Shown here piece after piece: positions 8,130 to 42,259 of a DNA stretch of 64,000 nt. A model generated the notes under the pieces. It did no database searches, was not told the origin of the DNA, and saw only the letters and a list, made by a program, of their open reading frames with translations. Each line of letters starts with the position of its first letter. Position 1 is the first letter of the stretch. Origin of the DNA: Alphaproteobacteria bacterium (GTDB lineage: Bacteria; Pseudomonadota; Alphaproteobacteria; Bin95). The stretch lies in NCBI GenBank assembly GCA_965205265.1, contig CBDBGH010000003.1, forward strand, positions 2,176,001-2,240,000. Reading direction: 5' to 3'. Both the position numbers and the translations under genes were made by a program.

Positions 8130-9908
8130 ATGACCGGCACCCCCGACCAGGATGCGCTTGCCGAACGCTTCAGGGAAATCACGGAACGCAGCCAGCGCGT
8201 GGCGGCGGAGTTCGCCGCCCGGCACGGCGCGGAAGCGGGCGGAACCGACCCGGACCCGCTCGGCATCGGCAAGGCCTTTCTGGAAATGACCGCGCGGATG
8301 ATGGCCGACCCGGCGCGCATGATGACGGCCCAGGCGGAGCTCGCCCAGCAATACGCCAGGCTCTGGCAGGACACGGCGCGCCGGATGATGGGCGGCGAAC
8401 CCGTGCAGCCGGTTGCCGAGCCCGAGCCGGGAGACCGCCGGTTCAAGGACACGGCCTGGCGGGAGAATTTCGTCTTCGACTTCATCAAGCAGTCCTATCT
8501 GCTTTCGTCGCGCTTCCTGCTCGGCAGCCTGCCGGATGCGGAAGGTGCCGACCGGCACGAGGCCGACAAGGTTGCCTTCTACACGCGCCAGTTCGTCGAT
8601 GCGATGGCGCCGACCAATTTCGCCGCCACCAACCCCAGGGTGCTGCGCGAGACGCTCGACAGCAATGGCGAGAACCTGCTGCGCGGCTTCGAGAACATGC
8701 TGCGCGACCTGGAGGCGGGCAAGGGGCAACTCCGCATCGCGCAGACCGACATGTCGGCCTTCGAGGTTGGGCGCAATGTCGCCGTAACGCCGGGCAAGGT
8801 GGTGCTGCGCAACGACCTCATGGAGCTCATCCAGTACGAGCCCGCGACGGAGACCGTCCACGAGGTGCCGCTGCTGATTGTCCCGCCCTGGATCAACAAA
8901 TTCTACATCCTGGACCTGACGCCGGAAAATTCCTTCGTGCGCTGGGCGGTCGAGCAGGGCCACACCGTGTTCGTCATCTCCTGGGTCAATCCGGATTCGC
9001 GGCTCTCCGACAAGGCGTTCGAGGACTACATGGCCGAGGGCCCGCTGGCCGCGCTCGACGCCATCGAGCGGATCGCCGGGGCGCGGCGCGCGAACGCCAT
9101 CGGCTATTGCCTCGGCGGCACGCTGCTGGCGGTGACGCTCGCCTGGCTGGCCGCGCGCGGCGAGGCGCCCGTCGAGAGCGCCACCTATTTCGCCTCGCTG
9201 GTCGATTTCAGCGAGGTGGGCGAGCTCGGCGTGTTCATCGACGAGGAGCAGGTGGCGGCGCTGGAAGCGCGCATGGACAAGGCCGGCGGCGTCCTCGAAG
9301 GCGCCGACATGGCGACGACCTTCAACATGCTGCGCGCGAACGACCTGATCTGGTCCTTCGTCATAAACAACTACCTGCTCGGCCGCGACCCGGTGCCGTT
9401 CGACCTCCTGTTCTGGAATGCCGATTCGACGCGGATGCCGAAGCGCATGCACAGCTTCTACCTGCGCCGCATGTATATGGACAATGCGCTGGCGGAGCCG
9501 GGCGCGCTGGAGATCGCCGGCGAACGGCTGGACCTCTCGGCGGTGAAGACCCGCACCTATGTCGTCGGCACCCGCGAAGACCACATCGCGCCCTGGCCGG
9601 GCGTCTATCGGGGCGCCAGGCACTATGGCGGGCCGGTGCGCTTCGTGCTGGCGGCGTCGGGCCATATCGCCGGCATCGTCAACCCGCCGGCGGCCGGCAA
9701 ATACAGCCACTGGACCCATCGGCAGATGCTGAAGGACAGCGAGTCCTGGCTGGAGCGCGCGGCGGAGAAGCCGGGCTCCTGGTGGCCGGACTGGGCTGCG
9801 TGGGTGGCGCGTTCCGCCGGCGGCAAGGCGCCCGCGCGCGTCCCCGGCGAAGGCCCGCTGCCGGCGCTCTGCGACGCCCCCGGCACCTATGTTGCGGAGC
9901 GGGCCTGA
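8130..9908 (+). CDS. phaC: Class I polyhydroxyalkanoate synthase
   Basis: PPWINKFYILDL, lipase box GYCLGG, MLRANDLIW, DHIAP, SGHIAG and GSWWPDW motifs. Confidence 0.97.
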   Translation: MTGTPDQDALAERFREITERSQRVAAEFAARHGAEAGGTDPDPLGIGKAFLEMTARMMADPARMMTAQAELAQQYARLWQDTARRMMGGEPVQPVAEPEPGDRRFKDTAWRENFVFDFIKQSYLLSSRFLLGSLPDAEGADRHEADKVAFYTRQFVDAMAPTNFAATNPRVLRETLDSNGENLLRGFENMLRDLEAGKGQLRIAQTDMSAFEVGRNVAVTPGKVVLRNDLMELIQYEPATETVHEVPLLIVPPWINKFYILDLTPENSFVRWAVEQGHTVFVISWVNPDSRLSDKAFEDYMAEGPLAALDAIERIAGARRANAIGYCLGGTLLAVTLAWLAARGEAPVESATYFASLVDFSEVGELGVFIDEEQVAALEARMDKAGGVLEGADMATTFNMLRANDLIWSFVINNYLLGRDPVPFDLLFWNADSTRMPKRMHSFYLRRMYMDNALAEPGALEIAGERLDLSAVKTRTYVVGTREDHIAPWPGVYRGARHYGGPVRFVLAASGHIAGIVNPPAAGKYSHWTHRQMLKDSESWLERAAEKPGSWWPDWAAWVARSAGGKAPARVPGEGPLPALCDAPGTYVAERA

Positions 9909-10007
9909 GCGGGGCAGCTTCTTGCAGGCTGCGCTTGCCCGGCCGCCTCCCGCCGATATACTGGCGTTGTCGGCCATGAGCGGCGGGTTCGATGGAGCCA
10001 TGGGTAA

Positions 10008-10334
10008 ATGACGCCTGAGATGATCGCGATTCTGGCGGTTGGCGCGAGTCTGGCCGTGCTGATCTGGCAGGGGCAGCGCGCAGCGAAGGAAGACCGCGCG
10101 AGGCTGGAGACGAGTCTGCGGGGCGAGTTGCAAGCCGGGTTGCGCGAGGCAAAGGAAGACCGTGCGCGGCTGGAGACGAGTCTGCGAGGCGAGTTGCAGG
10201 CCGGGTTGCGCGAGGCGAAGGAAGACCGCGCCCGCCTCGAAATCCGATTGCAGGCGGTGGAGCACGGTATGGCCAAGCTCGAGGGCCTTCTGGAAGGATT
10301 GCGCGAAGCCATTGCGGGCCGCCGCGCCGCCTGA
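10008..10334 (+). CDS. Small N-terminally anchored coiled-coil protein with 22-aa tandem repeats (paralog 1)
   Basis: Hydrophobic N-terminus; the 66-bp repeat units differ only synonymously; paralog at 41975. Confidence 0.8.
   Translation: MTPEMIAILAVGASLAVLIWQGQRAAKEDRARLETSLRGELQAGLREAKEDRARLETSLRGELQAGLREAKEDRARLEIRLQAVEHGMAKLEGLLEGLREAIAGRRAA
10083..10241 (+). repeat. 66-bp coding tandem repeat, about 2.4 copies (AKEDRARLETSLRGELQAGLRE)
   Basis: Units start at 10083, 10149 and 10215. Confidence 0.95.
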
Positions 10335-10480
10335 TGCAGGTTGAGCGCGCGGGCCGGTCCTGCGACGCAATTGTTCCCTCTAGAGAGTCGCGCAGGGAAT
10401 TTTTTTCTGTTATTGAGGCGCCGTTGCGCCTCCGCGCAGACGTGCGGGGGCACTTTAACTGGCACCAGGGAGGCATACAC

Positions 10481-11530
10481 TTGTTCAAGAAACTCCTCAC
10501 AGTAGCCGCGGCCGGACTTGTCGGCGCTGCGGCATTCGGCGTGGCGGGCGACGCCGAAGCGCAGAAAGTGCGCTGGAAAATGCAGAGCGCCTTCGCATCC
10601 AAGCTCTCGATCATCGGCGAGGTCGCGGCGCGTTACGAGGACATCGTCAAGGACATGTCCGCGGGCGATCTGAACATCAAGTTCTATGAGCCGGGCGCGC
10701 TTGTGCCGACGCTCCAGGGCTTCGACGCTGTCGAGGCGGGTTCCGTCGACGCCATGTGGGGCACCGCCGGCTACCACACCGGCAAATATCCCGCGCTCTC
10801 GTTCTTCACCGCAGTGCCGTTCGGGCCGCGCGCCGGCGAATTGCTGGCCTGGATGGGTTATGGCGGCGGCGACGAGCTCTACAACGAGCTGTATGCCAAG
10901 CACGACCTGATCGGCCTGCATTGCGCGGCAATCGCTCCGGAGACCTCCGGCTGGTTCCGCTCGAAGCTGAATTCGATCGACGACCTGAAGGGCAAGAAGA
11001 TGCGCTTCTTCGGTCTCGGCGCGAAGGTGATGACCAAGCTCGGCGTCTCCACCCAGTTGCTGGCGGGCGCGGACATCTATCCGGCACTTGAGCGCGGCGT
11101 CATCGACGCAACCGAGTTCTCCATGCCGTCCATCGACCTCGACCTCGGCTTCTACCAGATCGCCAAGTTCAACTACTTCCCGGGCTGGCACCAGCAGTCG
11201 TCGATCGGCGAACTGTTGATGAGGAAGTCGGCCTTCGAGGGACTGTCCGGCCAGCACCAGGCGATCATTCGCCATGCGTGCGATGCGTCGATCACCTGGT
11301 CGTTCGTCCGGTCGGAGGCCAAGCAGTTCGAGGCTATGCTGGCGCTGAAAGAGAAGGGCGTCGAGAGCGTGCGCTGGAGCGATGACGACCTCGCCAAGCT
11401 CGCCAAGGCCTGGGACGAGGTGGTCGCCGAGGAAAACGCGGCCGATCCGCTCTTCGCCAAGTTCCATGCTTCCTACCAGGCCTTCCGCGACAAATACGCG
11501 ATCTGGAAGGAACACGGCTATCTCGACTGA
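10481..11530 (+). CDS. dctP: TRAP transporter substrate-binding protein (TakP-like DctP)
   Basis: TTG start after GGAGG; signal peptide; RWKMQS, VPFGP, GWF, DIYPALERGVIDATEF and YFPGWHQ motifs. Confidence 0.93.
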   Translation: MFKKLLTVAAAGLVGAAAFGVAGDAEAQKVRWKMQSAFASKLSIIGEVAARYEDIVKDMSAGDLNIKFYEPGALVPTLQGFDAVEAGSVDAMWGTAGYHTGKYPALSFFTAVPFGPRAGELLAWMGYGGGDELYNELYAKHDLIGLHCAAIAPETSGWFRSKLNSIDDLKGKKMRFFGLGAKVMTKLGVSTQLLAGADIYPALERGVIDATEFSMPSIDLDLGFYQIAKFNYFPGWHQQSSIGELLMRKSAFEGLSGQHQAIIRHACDASITWSFVRSEAKQFEAMLALKEKGVESVRWSDDDLAKLAKAWDEVVAEENAADPLFAKFHASYQAFRDKYAIWKEHGYLD

Positions 11531-41900: not shown

Positions 41901-41974
41901 GGAAGACCGGGCTTGTTGCCCGGCCGGCGAGGATATACGGTCCATATCGAATTTGTAGATGGACAGGCGGAACG

Positions 41975-42259
41975 ATGACGCCGGAGATGATTGCGATACT
42001 GGCCGTTGGGGCCAGTCTGGTCGGTATAGGCGTCACCCTGGGCGGCTTGGTCTGGCAGGGTCACCGTGCATTACGCGCCGATCTGGGCGGTCGGATGGAC
42101 CGGATCGAAGGCGTAATGAAGGAACAAGGCGGTCGGATGGACCGGATCGAAGGCGTAATGAAGGAACAAGGCGAGCGTATCGCGCGGATCGAAGGGATGC
42201 TGCATCTGCATCTCGGCCGGAACGCGGACATCGCCCCGCCGGCGGCGCCGGCCGAATAG
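41975..42259 (+). CDS. Small N-terminally anchored coiled-coil protein with 14-aa tandem repeats (paralog 2, 94 aa)
   Basis: First 15 aa identical to the 10008 protein; hydrophobic anchor followed by (GGRMDRIEGVMKEQ)x2. Confidence 0.8.
   Translation: MTPEMIAILAVGASLVGIGVTLGGLVWQGHRALRADLGGRMDRIEGVMKEQGGRMDRIEGVMKEQGERIARIEGMLHLHLGRNADIAPPAAPAE
42086..42169 (+). repeat. Perfect 42-bp coding tandem repeat x2
   Basis: GGCGGTCGGATGGACCGGATCGAAGGCGTAATGAAGGAACAA at 42086 and 42128. Confidence 0.97.

What the first reader, a model, noticed from the sequence alone, without database searches (positions are those of the whole stretch)
9935..10334. Dispersed cassette-like family of anchored coiled-coil mini-proteins: conserved head, interchangeable repeat stalk (copy 1)
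Seen: the genes at 10008 and 41975 share 15 identical N-terminal residues (MTPEMIAILAVGASL) with 6 nucleotide differences, all synonymous. Both have WQG after the hydrophobic segment and a C-terminal A[KR][LI]EG[LM]L motif. Their middles are unrelated tandem repeats: 22 aa here (hendecad-compatible) and 14 aa in copy 2 (heptad-compatible). Both sit just after the stop of an unrelated metabolic gene (phaC, paaE). Both share the upstream motif order TTGCCCGGCCG...GATATAC...GATGGA-N11-ATG. Inference: a multi-copy, self-promoted gene family under purifying selection on the anchor, diversified by repeat gain and swap. Possible roles are variable membrane/surface modules or membrane-acting toxin/defence proteins. 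I cannot assign it to a named family.
Basis: partly seen in the sequence, partly recalled or inferred. Interest (0 to 1): 0.75.

Follow-up and report, generated by a model that had tools for sequence, protein, structure and literature searches.

The report
Membrane-tethered coiled-coil mini-protein family
Two small genes in this window belong to a large, unnamed family of membrane-anchored helical proteins whose middle part grows and shrinks by short repeats while the tail end stays almost unchanged in distant bacteria; what the proteins do is still unknown.

Summary
Genes at 10008..10334 (108 aa) and 41975..42259 (94 aa) share 15 identical N-terminal residues. Their 6 nucleotide differences are all synonymous, and both carry the reported upstream motifs and repeat periods.

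They are paralogues (hhalign 99.5%) in a large unnamed family: 2161 clusters at E<=0.01, none above a Pfam or NCBIfam cut-off.

Anatomy:
- A short hydrophobic head with a strong positive-inside bias, so N-out and C-in (171 of 172).
- A coiled-coil stalk of tandem units that are almost always 7, 11, 14, 18 or 22 residues (196 of 197).
- A nearly invariant tail, KLEGLLEGLREAI, conserved as protein and not as DNA.

Orthologues at fixed sites differ in repeat number (64 to 130 aa). Copies form arrays in other genomes, and no partner gene recurs.

The closest known kind is the phage Mu releasin (DUF2730). Architecture matches; homology is inconclusive.

Best reading: a membrane-tethered cytoplasmic coiled-coil adaptor whose tail docks or caps. 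The function is inferred, not shown.

The parts
9935..9962 (+). Promoter-like site of copy 1: TTGCCC, 16 nt, TATACT
   Evidence: 1 site found against 0.0 expected in shuffles; both hexamers are the conserved blocks of the intergenic region in the window, L001, L002 and L008 (TATGCC in L008).
9991..9997 (+). GATGGAG, a likely ribosome-binding site (GGAG), 10-11 nt before the ATG
   Evidence: Sequence. The four orthologues and copy 2 all have a purine-rich block at this place. 48 of 67 family genes have an SD-like word at -18..-4. The assignment is an inference.
10008..10334 (+). Copy 1 coding sequence, 108 aa (P0001), stop codon included
   Evidence: GC by codon position is 0.76/0.48/0.80. 2161 relatives. 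AlphaFold2 gives one helix, residues 3-107, mean pLDDT 89.
10020..10067 (+). Hydrophobic head (residues 5-20), the predicted membrane anchor, N-terminus outside
   Evidence: the uncharged segment is 16 residues here. Across the family K+R is higher on the C-terminal flank in 171 of 172 proteins, with a median of 4 residues before the segment.
10086..10231 (+). Tandem repeat of the stalk, 66 nt (22 aa) x 2.2 copies
   Evidence: 61 of 66 nt identical between units, with identical peptides.
10245..10331 (+). Conserved tail RLQAVEHGMAKLEGLLEGLREAIAGRRAA (residues 80-108)
   Evidence: every invariant and nearly invariant column lies here; 52 exact KLEGLLEGLREAI instances are encoded by 43 distinct 39-nt strings, with consensus share 0.95/1.00/0.65 by codon position.
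41913..41939 (+). Upstream motifs of copy 2: TTGTTGCCCGGCCG ... GATATACG
   Evidence: The consensus scan found no promoter here. TTGCCC lies only 12 nt from TATACG. TTGTTG-15-TATACG is my own alternative reading.
41958..41963 (+). GATGGA, 11 nt before the ATG of copy 2
41975..42259 (+). Copy 2 coding sequence, 94 aa (P0002), stop codon included
   Evidence: 65 relatives. hhalign of its subfamily against the copy 1 subfamily gives 99.5%, E 2e-22. AlphaFold2 gives a helix at 3-85 and low confidence for 86-94.
42086..42195 (+). Tandem repeat of the stalk, 42 nt (14 aa) x 2.6 copies
   Evidence: 42 of 42 nt identical between the two full units.
42173..42256 (+). Tail of the copy 2 subfamily, ERIARIEGMLHLHLGRNADIAPPAAPAE
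   Evidence: R68, R71, I72, G74, L76, H77, H79, G81, R82, N83 and E94 are invariant in 32 sequences.

Best explanation
The two genes are real paralogues that are each transcribed on their own. They belong to a large unnamed family of small bitopic inner-membrane proteins.

Each protein is one long helix with three parts:
- A short N-terminal hydrophobic segment anchors it in the membrane. About four residues lie outside and the rest lies in the cytoplasm.
- The middle is a coiled-coil stalk built of tandem units of 7 or 11 residues, or sums of these. Units can be gained and lost by slippage or unequal recombination without breaking the helical register.
- The last 25 or so residues form a nearly invariant helix. 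It is (V/L)EHGQAKLEGLLEGLREAI.GR in the copy 1 subfamily and R(I/V).RIEGMLHLHLGRN in the copy 2 subfamily.

I infer that the protein oligomerises along the stalk and works as a membrane-tethered cytoplasmic adaptor. The invariant tail would be the working end, either a docking site for a conserved partner or the cap that sets the oligomer. The stalk would set how far from the membrane the tail sits.

This is the same kind of thing as the phage Mu releasin gp25: a membrane-tethered cytoplasmic protein acting on another membrane protein.

Shown here: the anatomy, the selection, the repeat dynamics and the lack of a fixed partner gene. Inferred: membrane insertion, oligomerisation, and the adaptor role.
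For: The genes are real.
- Third-position variation with a constant peptide is seen in the head (6 of 6 differences synonymous).
- The same holds for the tail: 43 distinct 39-nt strings encode one 13-residue peptide.
- The promoter-like hexamers are conserved in 4 orthologous loci.

Topology.
- Mean K+R is 0.07 on the N flank and 4.08 on the C flank. The C flank is higher in 171 of 172 proteins, and a median of 4 residues precede the segment.

One continuous helix.
- AlphaFold2 gives helix 3-107 at pLDDT 89 for copy 1 and helix 3-85 for copy 2.

Register-keeping stalk.
- Repeat units are 7 (100 proteins), 11 (70), 14 (2), 18 (14) or 22 (10) residues. That is 196 of 197 proteins that have a repeat; one has 15.
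- Length differences inside the hydrophobic head are also 7 residues (alignment columns 14-20 and 27-33).

Tail as the constrained end.
- All invariant and nearly invariant columns of 42 diverse members lie in residues 80-108.
- The motif ends 6-7 residues before the C-terminus in 157 of 190 proteins.

Fast repeat turnover at fixed sites.
- At phaC-X-dctP the lengths are 108, 126 and 130 aa, plus a repeat-less form.
- Close relatives range from 64 to 130 aa.
- At guaA-X-DUF3891 the lengths are 86, 96, 128 and 142 aa.

Stand-alone gene.
- No neighbouring family is shared by more than 5 of 73 loci.
- No small partner ORF recurs.

Releasin parallel.
- gp25 is 99 aa and N-out/C-in, with four periplasmic residues and a cytoplasmic domain (PMC9239132, passages read).
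- BLASTP of copy 2 against gp25 gives E 4e-6 for the pair, collinear from the N-terminus.
- hhalign of the copy 2 subfamily against gp25 gives 87.5% and score 36.0. 150 segment-shuffled controls gave mean 11.2 and maximum 18.5.
Against: - No experiment or expression data exist for any member.
- The hydrophobic segment of copy 1 has only 16 uncharged residues, which is short for a membrane span.
- Topology rests on the charge rule alone.
- The similarity to DUF2730 is not consistent. The other three phage DUF2730 proteins score 12.6-16.6 against both family profiles, no better than the Mu i-spanin control (12.8-16.9). The copy 1 profile against gp25 alone gives 5%. No member reaches the PF10805 cut-off (best 21.1 against 24.9 bits).
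- No partner for the tail is known, and no endolysin or Mu-like phage genes lie beside the genes.
- The 197 repeat-bearing proteins are not independent of each other, and 7- and 11-residue duplications are what any amphipathic helix would tolerate.
Confidence: 0.5

Rival explanations
1. The protein is a membrane-acting toxin or anti-phage effector. It would oligomerise in the membrane and damage it when triggered, and the variable stalk would reflect an arms race.
For: - Arrays of copies occur in some genomes: L042 with 5 genes and L017 with 4.
- The nearest neighbours include a transposase, integrase, resolvase, relaxase or TrbL at 12 of 73 loci. Toxin-antitoxin or restriction-modification genes lie next to 4 of 73.
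- A DUF433 + DUF5615 pair is inserted right beside the gene in L008.
- P0001 gives a weak PADLOC hit to a '4TM effector' model (E 7e-5, 20.1 bits).
Against: - No antitoxin-like or sensor partner recurs.
- Most neighbours are metabolic or housekeeping genes.
- Copy 1 is kept at one syntenic site in genomes 78-96% identical.
- The promoter-like site is of the ordinary sigma-70 type.
- The other PADLOC and PHROG hits are scattered coiled-coil matches to many unrelated models.
- The most conserved part is a charged cytoplasmic tail, not the membrane segment.
Confidence: 0.17
2. The protein is a lipid-surface or PHB-granule coat protein, like a phasin or apolipoprotein. The 11/22-residue amphipathic repeats would lie flat on a lipid or polymer surface, and the head would dip into it.
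For: - Copy 1 lies directly after phaC in the window and in L001, L002 and L008.
- The family profile hits apolipoprotein A-IV in the PDB (E 2.9e-8).
- 25 of 42 members give weak Pfam Apolipoprotein matches.
- That 11-residue amphipathic repeats are typical of lipid-binding helices is recalled, not tested.
Against: - Among the nearest-neighbour ORFs of the 73 loci that were scanned, none carried a PHA domain. The phaC gene beside L001, L002 and L008 was not among the ORFs scanned.
- Apolipoprotein scores are 21-29 bits against a cut-off of 90.
- More members with a repeat have 7-residue units (100) than 11-residue units (70).
- This reading does not explain the invariant tail.
Confidence: 0.1
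3. The topology is the opposite (N-in, C-out). The stalk would stand in the periplasm as an envelope spacer or tether, like an i-spanin, FtsB or Lpp-type coiled coil, and the tail would contact the wall or outer membrane.
For: - The architecture (N-terminal span plus coiled coil) is shared with periplasmic coiled-coil proteins.
- Weak PHROG hits to Rz-like spanins occur for some members (E 0.002-0.04).
- Weak Pfam DivIC hits occur for 4 of 42 members.
Against: - The N flank is almost free of K/R (mean 0.07) and has net charge -1.0. The C flank has 4.08 K+R, and this bias holds in 171 of 172 proteins.
- Stalk length ranges from 18 to 148 residues, and it differs between orthologues at one site. 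That fits poorly with a fixed periplasmic width.
Confidence: 0.08

Closest known systems
Phage Mu releasin gp25 / DUF2730 (PF10805)
   Same: - About 100 aa, with an N-terminal membrane segment.
- Predicted N-out/C-in topology with about four residues outside.
- Basic residues at the membrane-cytoplasm junction, and a helical cytoplasmic domain (PMC9239132, passages read; for this family).
- Copy 2 aligns to gp25 collinearly from the N-terminus (32% over 73 aa, pairwise E 4e-6).
- hhalign of its subfamily against gp25 gives 87.5%, with 0 of 150 shuffles as high.
- The protein database's own precomputed labels put PF10805.15 on some members.
   Different: - No Mu-like phage genes and no endolysin gene lie nearby.
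- No member reaches the PF10805.13 cut-off.
- Three other phage DUF2730 proteins score at noise level.
- This family has tandem-repeat stalks, an invariant LEGLLEGLREAI tail, and many chromosomal copies.
Bdr (Borrelia direct repeat) proteins.
   Same: Small, multi-copy paralogous membrane-anchored helical proteins with conserved ends and a middle made of a variable number of short tandem repeats.
   Different: The anchor is at the C-terminus, the genes are plasmid-borne in one genus, and no sequence similarity was seen or tested here.
   Same: Short coiled-coil proteins with one membrane segment. Weak matches occur in 18, 10 and 18 of 42 members respectively.
   Different: All scores are below the cut-offs: best 28.6 against 33.5, 26.0 against 34.7, and 30.4 against 40 bits. 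The matches cover only the repeat stalk. In DUF1640 and XhlA the membrane segment is C-terminal (recalled).
PspB and other N-terminally anchored cytoplasmic coiled-coil proteins (architecture recalled)
   Same: A small protein with an N-terminal span and a cytoplasmic coiled coil.
   Different: The only hit is a noise-level NCBIfam match (E 3.7, 7.9 bits against 51.7), and no psp genes lie nearby.

Membership tests
DUF2730 / Mu releasin (PF10805) | Match to the Pfam model above its gathering score | tested here: not met
   P0001 and P0002 have no PF10805 hit at E<=10. The best of 10 members is 21.1 bits against 24.9. 8 of 42 members match at E<=0.1. PF10805 is not among the 25 most-matched families for the 32 copy 2 relatives. 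The database's precomputed labels (model version .15) do tag some members.
DUF2730 / Mu releasin (PF10805) | N-terminal transmembrane segment, N-out/C-in, about four periplasmic residues, cytoplasmic C-terminal domain | tested here: met
   Charge bias in 171 of 172 proteins, with a median of 4 residues before the segment. The gp25 features are from PMC9239132 and the annotation of AF083977. This is prediction only.
DUF2730 / Mu releasin (PF10805) | Profile-level sequence similarity to phage DUF2730 proteins | tested here: inconclusive
   A4 against gp25: 87.5%, E 3.6e-6, with 0 of 150 shuffles as high. A4 against the 4-sequence DUF2730 profile: 74%. A2 against that profile: 54%. A2 against gp25: 5%. 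Three other DUF2730 proteins taken singly score 12.6-16.6, like the i-spanin control.
DUF2730 / Mu releasin (PF10805) | Gene lies within a few genes of an endolysin in a transposable (Mu-like) phage | tested here: not met
   The window neighbours are PhaC/DctP and a PaaE-type reductase/luciferase-like oxidoreductase. None of the 129 nearest-neighbour ORFs at the 73 loci carries a lysozyme-type domain. tblastn of P0001 against 50,697 phage records gives no match.
CCDC90-like / DUF1640 (PF07798) | Match above the gathering score | tested here: not met
   Best score 28.6 bits against 33.5 (P0046). P0001 and P0002 have no hit.
XhlA haemolysin (PF10779) | Match above the gathering score | tested here: not met
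   Best score 26.0 bits against 34.7 (P0034). P0001 and P0002 have no hit.
Apolipoprotein A1/A4/E (PF01442) / phasin-like | Match above the gathering score | tested here: not met
   21.3-29.2 bits against 90. The PDB profile hit to ApoA-IV covers the repeat region only (profile positions 26-102).
Toxin-antitoxin or defence module | A conserved adjacent partner gene, or a match to a defence model | tested here: not met
   No neighbour family is shared by more than 5 of 73 loci. No small ORF recurs. PADLOC gives only weak hits spread over unrelated coiled-coil models.
   The phaC-dctP site is occupied in the window and in 3 of 3 relatives. Paralogues share only the gene plus about 100-150 nt upstream, a unit of about 430-520 nt. 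Loci were fetched through the gene itself, so empty sites could not be seen. No search for attC-like ends was made.
Bdr (Borrelia direct repeat) | C-terminal anchor, Borrelia plasmid location, Bdr repeat motif | not tested
   The features are recalled only. The anchor here is N-terminal.

The most novel reading that the evidence does not exclude
The family is a length-variable membrane tether. Its invariant C-terminal peptide would dock one partner common to bacteria of at least six phyla, perhaps a phage-borne, mobile-element-borne or habitat-specific factor rather than a housekeeping protein. The 7/11-residue repeat turnover would work as a contingency mechanism that retunes the reach of the tether within populations. 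On this reading it is a cellular, expanded cousin of the phage releasins.
Probability: 0.15. Interest if true: 0.75.

Novelty: new variant of a known kind. Interest (0 to 1): 0.47.

Why it matters
Small membrane proteins are badly under-annotated. Here is a family of thousands of sequence clusters with no Pfam or NCBIfam home.

It has three clear modules and two unusual properties:
- A 13-residue peptide is kept letter for letter in Acidobacteriota, Pseudomonadota and other phyla, while the DNA that encodes it drifts.
- The stalk changes length between orthologues only in steps that keep the coiled-coil register.

If the tail has a single partner, finding that partner would assign a function to the whole family at once. 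It might also explain how phage releasins, whose mechanism is open, work. Naming the family would also remove many 'hypothetical protein' labels.

Tried and rejected
- Homo-dimer prediction: no verdict (score 0.12 against a mark of 0.42). It says nothing either way.
- tblastn of P0001 and of the repeat-less relative P0015 against plasmids, and of P0001 against phages: no match. For a 64-108 aa query in databases of this size, only close relatives could have passed.
- Protein Atlas: the nearest clusters are unnamed 'hypothetical protein' clusters (0.92-0.93). The nearest named ones are DUF2730 at 0.83-0.85, which is a lead only.
- Rfam on 9500..10700: only a sub-threshold radC RNA match.
- Longer or fused forms: 3 proteins only. 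The two that were read look like read-through past the normal stop.
- PDB search with the tail peptide alone: one chance-level hit (E 0.25).
- Literature:
  - The string LEGLLEGLREAI: 0 papers.
  - 'Versatilivorator': 0 papers.
  - Keyword search on sponge symbiont, coiled-coil, tandem repeat and small membrane protein: nothing relevant in the 6 papers listed.
  - DUF2730: 2 papers, both on phage lysis.
  - Bdr: nothing usable.
  - On these searches I found no paper on this family; subscription journals are not covered.
- A recurrent neighbour or small partner ORF was looked for and not found.
- The tree of 69 family members (83 columns) is too poorly resolved to show transfer between phyla. 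Phylum labels are clustered (12 changes against 24.8 in shuffles), yet Acidobacteriota need 8 changes and Pseudomonadota 9.
- Cluster look-up for source names could not be made.

Full report
**Observation.**
- Their first 15 residues are identical. The 45 nt differ at six sites, all third codon positions and all synonymous. The chance of that is about 3e-4, because only 35 of 135 possible single changes are synonymous.
- BLASTP joins the two heads at E 3e-11 for the pair.
- WQG follows the hydrophobic segment in both. The tails hold AKLEGLL and ARIEGML.
- Tandem Repeats Finder gives 66 nt x 2.2 and 42 nt x 2.6 copies.
- The upstream words TTGCCCGGCCG, GATATAC and GATGGA-N11-ATG are present in both.
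- The upstream genes are a PhaC and a PaaE-type reductase. The downstream genes are a DctP solute-binding protein and, convergent, a luciferase-like oxidoreductase.
- A phmmer scan of 907 six-frame ORFs finds no third copy in the window.

**The genes are real and each has signals of its own.**
- GC by codon position is 0.76/0.48/0.80 for copy 1 and 0.74/0.46/0.72 for copy 2.
- For copy 1 the consensus scan finds one sigma-70-like site, TTGCCC-16-TATACT at 9935..9962, against 0.0 expected.
- In an alignment with the three syntenic relatives, these two hexamers and a purine-rich block before the ATG are the conserved parts of an otherwise diverged spacer.
- For copy 2 the scan finds nothing. TTGCCC is only 12 nt from TATACG, so a shared promoter is not shown for it.
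- In 67 family genes from other genomes, all start with ATG and 48 have an SD-like word. Each lineage has its own promoter-like block close to the start.

**A large family without a name.**
- P0001 finds 2161 clusters at E<=0.01 among proteins of 59-189 aa.
- It finds 111 representatives at E<=0.001 in the exhaustive search of 1.84 billion representatives.
- P0002 finds 65.
- The two subfamilies are homologous over their length (hhalign 99.5%, E 2e-22).
- Neither protein reaches any Pfam or NCBIfam cut-off. None of 10 further members does either.
- The many weak hits cover the repeat stalk and are what coiled coils give: Apolipoprotein 25 of 42 members, DUF1664 20, DUF7310 18, CCDC90-like 18, XhlA 10, DUF2730 8.
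- PADLOC and PHROGs give only scattered weak matches.
- The nearest Atlas clusters are unnamed.

**Anatomy.**
- AlphaFold2 models each protein as one helix: residues 3-107 at pLDDT 89, and residues 3-85 with a low-confidence end.
- Head. It is an uncharged segment of 16-23 residues, preceded by a median of four residues. The N flank has 0.07 K+R on average and net charge -1.0. The C flank has 4.08 K+R and net charge +1.4. The C flank is the more basic in 171 of 172 proteins. By the positive-inside rule, the bulk of the protein lies in the cytoplasm.
- Stalk. It is 18 to 148 residues long. In the 197 of 313 stalks with a clear internal repeat, the unit is 7 residues (100), 11 (70), 14 (2), 18 (14), 22 (10) or 15 (1). 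So 196 of 197 are sums of 7 and 11, although only 15 of the 35 lengths tried are such sums. These proteins are related to each other, so the count is not a probability. Length differences inside the head are also seven residues.
- Tail. In 42 diverse members of the copy 1 subfamily, all 3 invariant and 15 nearly invariant columns lie in residues 80-108. The motif ends 6-7 residues before the C-terminus in 157 of 190 proteins. The last two residues are AA (61), AS (60) or AG (13).
- Tail selection. In the loci and the window, 52 exact copies of KLEGLLEGLREAI are encoded by 43 different 39-nt strings. The consensus share is 0.95, 1.00 and 0.65 at codon positions 1, 2 and 3. Selection is therefore on the peptide, not on the DNA.
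- The copy 2 subfamily has its own invariant tail, R..RI.G.LH.H.GRN.

**Dynamics.**
- Window 2.2-18.3 kb is collinear with L001 (89% identity), L002 (78-85%) and L008 (91-96%).
- At the phaC-dctP site the protein is 108 aa here, 126 aa in L001 and 130 aa in L002. In L008 it has no repeats and has lost one base in the head codons.
- Other close relatives are 64, 86, 93, 104, 108, 115, 126 and 130 aa.
- At a guaA-X-DUF3891 site in four other alphaproteobacterial genomes, the orthologues are 86, 96, 128 and 142 aa and differ in the number of MDERFDR units.
- The units inside the window genes are young: 61 of 66 and 42 of 42 nt identical.
- Relatives of copy 2 carry one to three AGLREAKEDRD.L units like those of copy 1. 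The two stalks therefore draw on one pool of units. Common descent with loss explains this as well as exchange does.
- 18 of 73 loci hold two or more matching ORFs. Some are pieces of one broken gene (L003, L023). Others are true arrays: L042 with five genes, L017 with four, and pairs in L015, L022, L043, L039 and L053.
- Between paralogues, similarity usually covers the gene plus about 100-150 nt upstream. In one Bryobacterales genome the gene instead rides in a repeat of more than 10 kb.

**Context and spread.**
- All 73 loci carry MAG titles. By phylum they are Acidobacteriota 33, Pseudomonadota 31, Ca. Binatota 4, Spirochaetota 2, Ca. Tectimicrobiota 1, Ca. Latescibacterota 1, and unassigned 1.
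- No neighbour family is shared by more than 5 loci, and no small ORF recurs.
- Of the 129 nearest-neighbour ORFs, most are metabolic or housekeeping genes. A transposase, integrase, resolvase, relaxase or TrbL lies next to the gene at 12 loci, and toxin-antitoxin or restriction-modification genes at 4.
- A tree of 69 members is poorly resolved.

**Closest known.**
- The best architectural match is the phage Mu releasin gp25 (DUF2730). It is 99 aa and N-out/C-in, with four periplasmic residues and a cytoplasmic domain. It is needed to free a signal-anchored endolysin from the membrane, by a mechanism that is still open (PMC9239132, passages read; annotation).
- For homology: copy 2 aligns with gp25 from the N-terminus (pairwise E 4e-6). 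Its subfamily profile scores 36.0 against gp25, while 150 segment-shuffled controls gave mean 11.2 and maximum 18.5. A four-sequence DUF2730 profile gives 74% and 54%.
- Against homology: the three other DUF2730 proteins taken singly score like the i-spanin control. The copy 1 profile against gp25 gives 5%. No member passes the Pfam cut-off. The phage context is absent.
- I therefore do not file the family under DUF2730. I use it as the best model of how such a protein can work.

**Mechanism.**
- I commit to a membrane-tethered, cytoplasm-facing coiled-coil adaptor. The head anchors it and may pair in the membrane. The stalk oligomerises and sets the reach. The tail is the working end.
- The a/d/e-type hydrophobic pattern and the G-x-x-x-G spacing in LEGLLEGL suit tight helix packing (my reading of the sequence). 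That fits either a docking site or an oligomer cap.
- The frequent small C-terminal residues (AA, AS) could also mark the protein for proteolysis. This is recalled knowledge of ssrA-like ends and was not tested.
- The toxin/defence, phasin-like and periplasmic readings are kept as rivals, with the evidence given in their sections.

**Left open.**
- The copy number in this organism's whole genome.
- The synteny of copy 2.
- Empty sites.
- Source names of the relatives: the look-up could not be made.
- Any experimental fact about any member.

Noticed in passing
L008:7200-7880 (the site that corresponds to window 9908-9935): In a relative 91-96% identical to the window, a DUF433 + DUF5615 gene pair (toxin-antitoxin-like) is inserted between the phaC stop and the mini-gene promoter. 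About 35 nt of the phaC 3' end are repeated at the far side of the insert, so the second gene ends with a copy of the phaC C-terminal codons.
   Followed up: partly
L008:7967-8159: The copy 1 orthologue here has no 22-aa repeat and lacks one base in the head codons. The frame therefore breaks after 16 codons. This is either a pseudogene or an assembly error in the MAG.
   Followed up: partly
L042:13400-16050: The array of family genes is interleaved with nine copies of a 27-nt direct repeat (AGTAATCCAGGACACCCATAAATCA, 78-100% identical). Its meaning is unknown.
   Followed up: no
L004, L005, L006, L020, L024 (one Bryobacterales genome) and L009: The family gene lies inside a mosaic repeat of more than 10 kb, 91-99% identical between loci. 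The repeat includes ORFs of up to 2359 aa. The 1172-aa ORF that was scanned has no Pfam match.
   Followed up: partly
Alignment A4, columns 14-20 and 27-33 (window 42020-42040 in copy 2): Length differences inside the hydrophobic head are blocks of exactly seven residues. Copy 2 carries the block SLVGIGV, which most relatives and copy 1 lack. The helical register therefore seems to be kept from the membrane segment onward.
   Followed up: partly
L001-L073 (record titles): All 73 loci carry MAG titles; none names a cultured strain. Many isolate labels share prefixes, so the sample may come from few studies or one kind of habitat. I did not trace them.
   Followed up: no
window 10492-10626 (+): A weak match to the Rfam radC RNA family (21.7 bits against a gathering score of 40, E 0.097), inside the start of the DctP gene. 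It is probably chance.
   Followed up: no
P0185 (3006 aa), P0201, P0225, P0253, P0254, P0240: Very long proteins contain 7-14 stretches similar to the copy 1 repeat unit (residues 26-85 of P0001). This may be coiled-coil repeat convergence or a shared repeat module.
   Followed up: no
P0291 (251 aa), P0292 (217 aa): These are two longer forms in which a normal head, stalk and tail are followed by unrelated sequence. They look like read-through or frameshift fusions rather than true domain fusions.
   Followed up: partly
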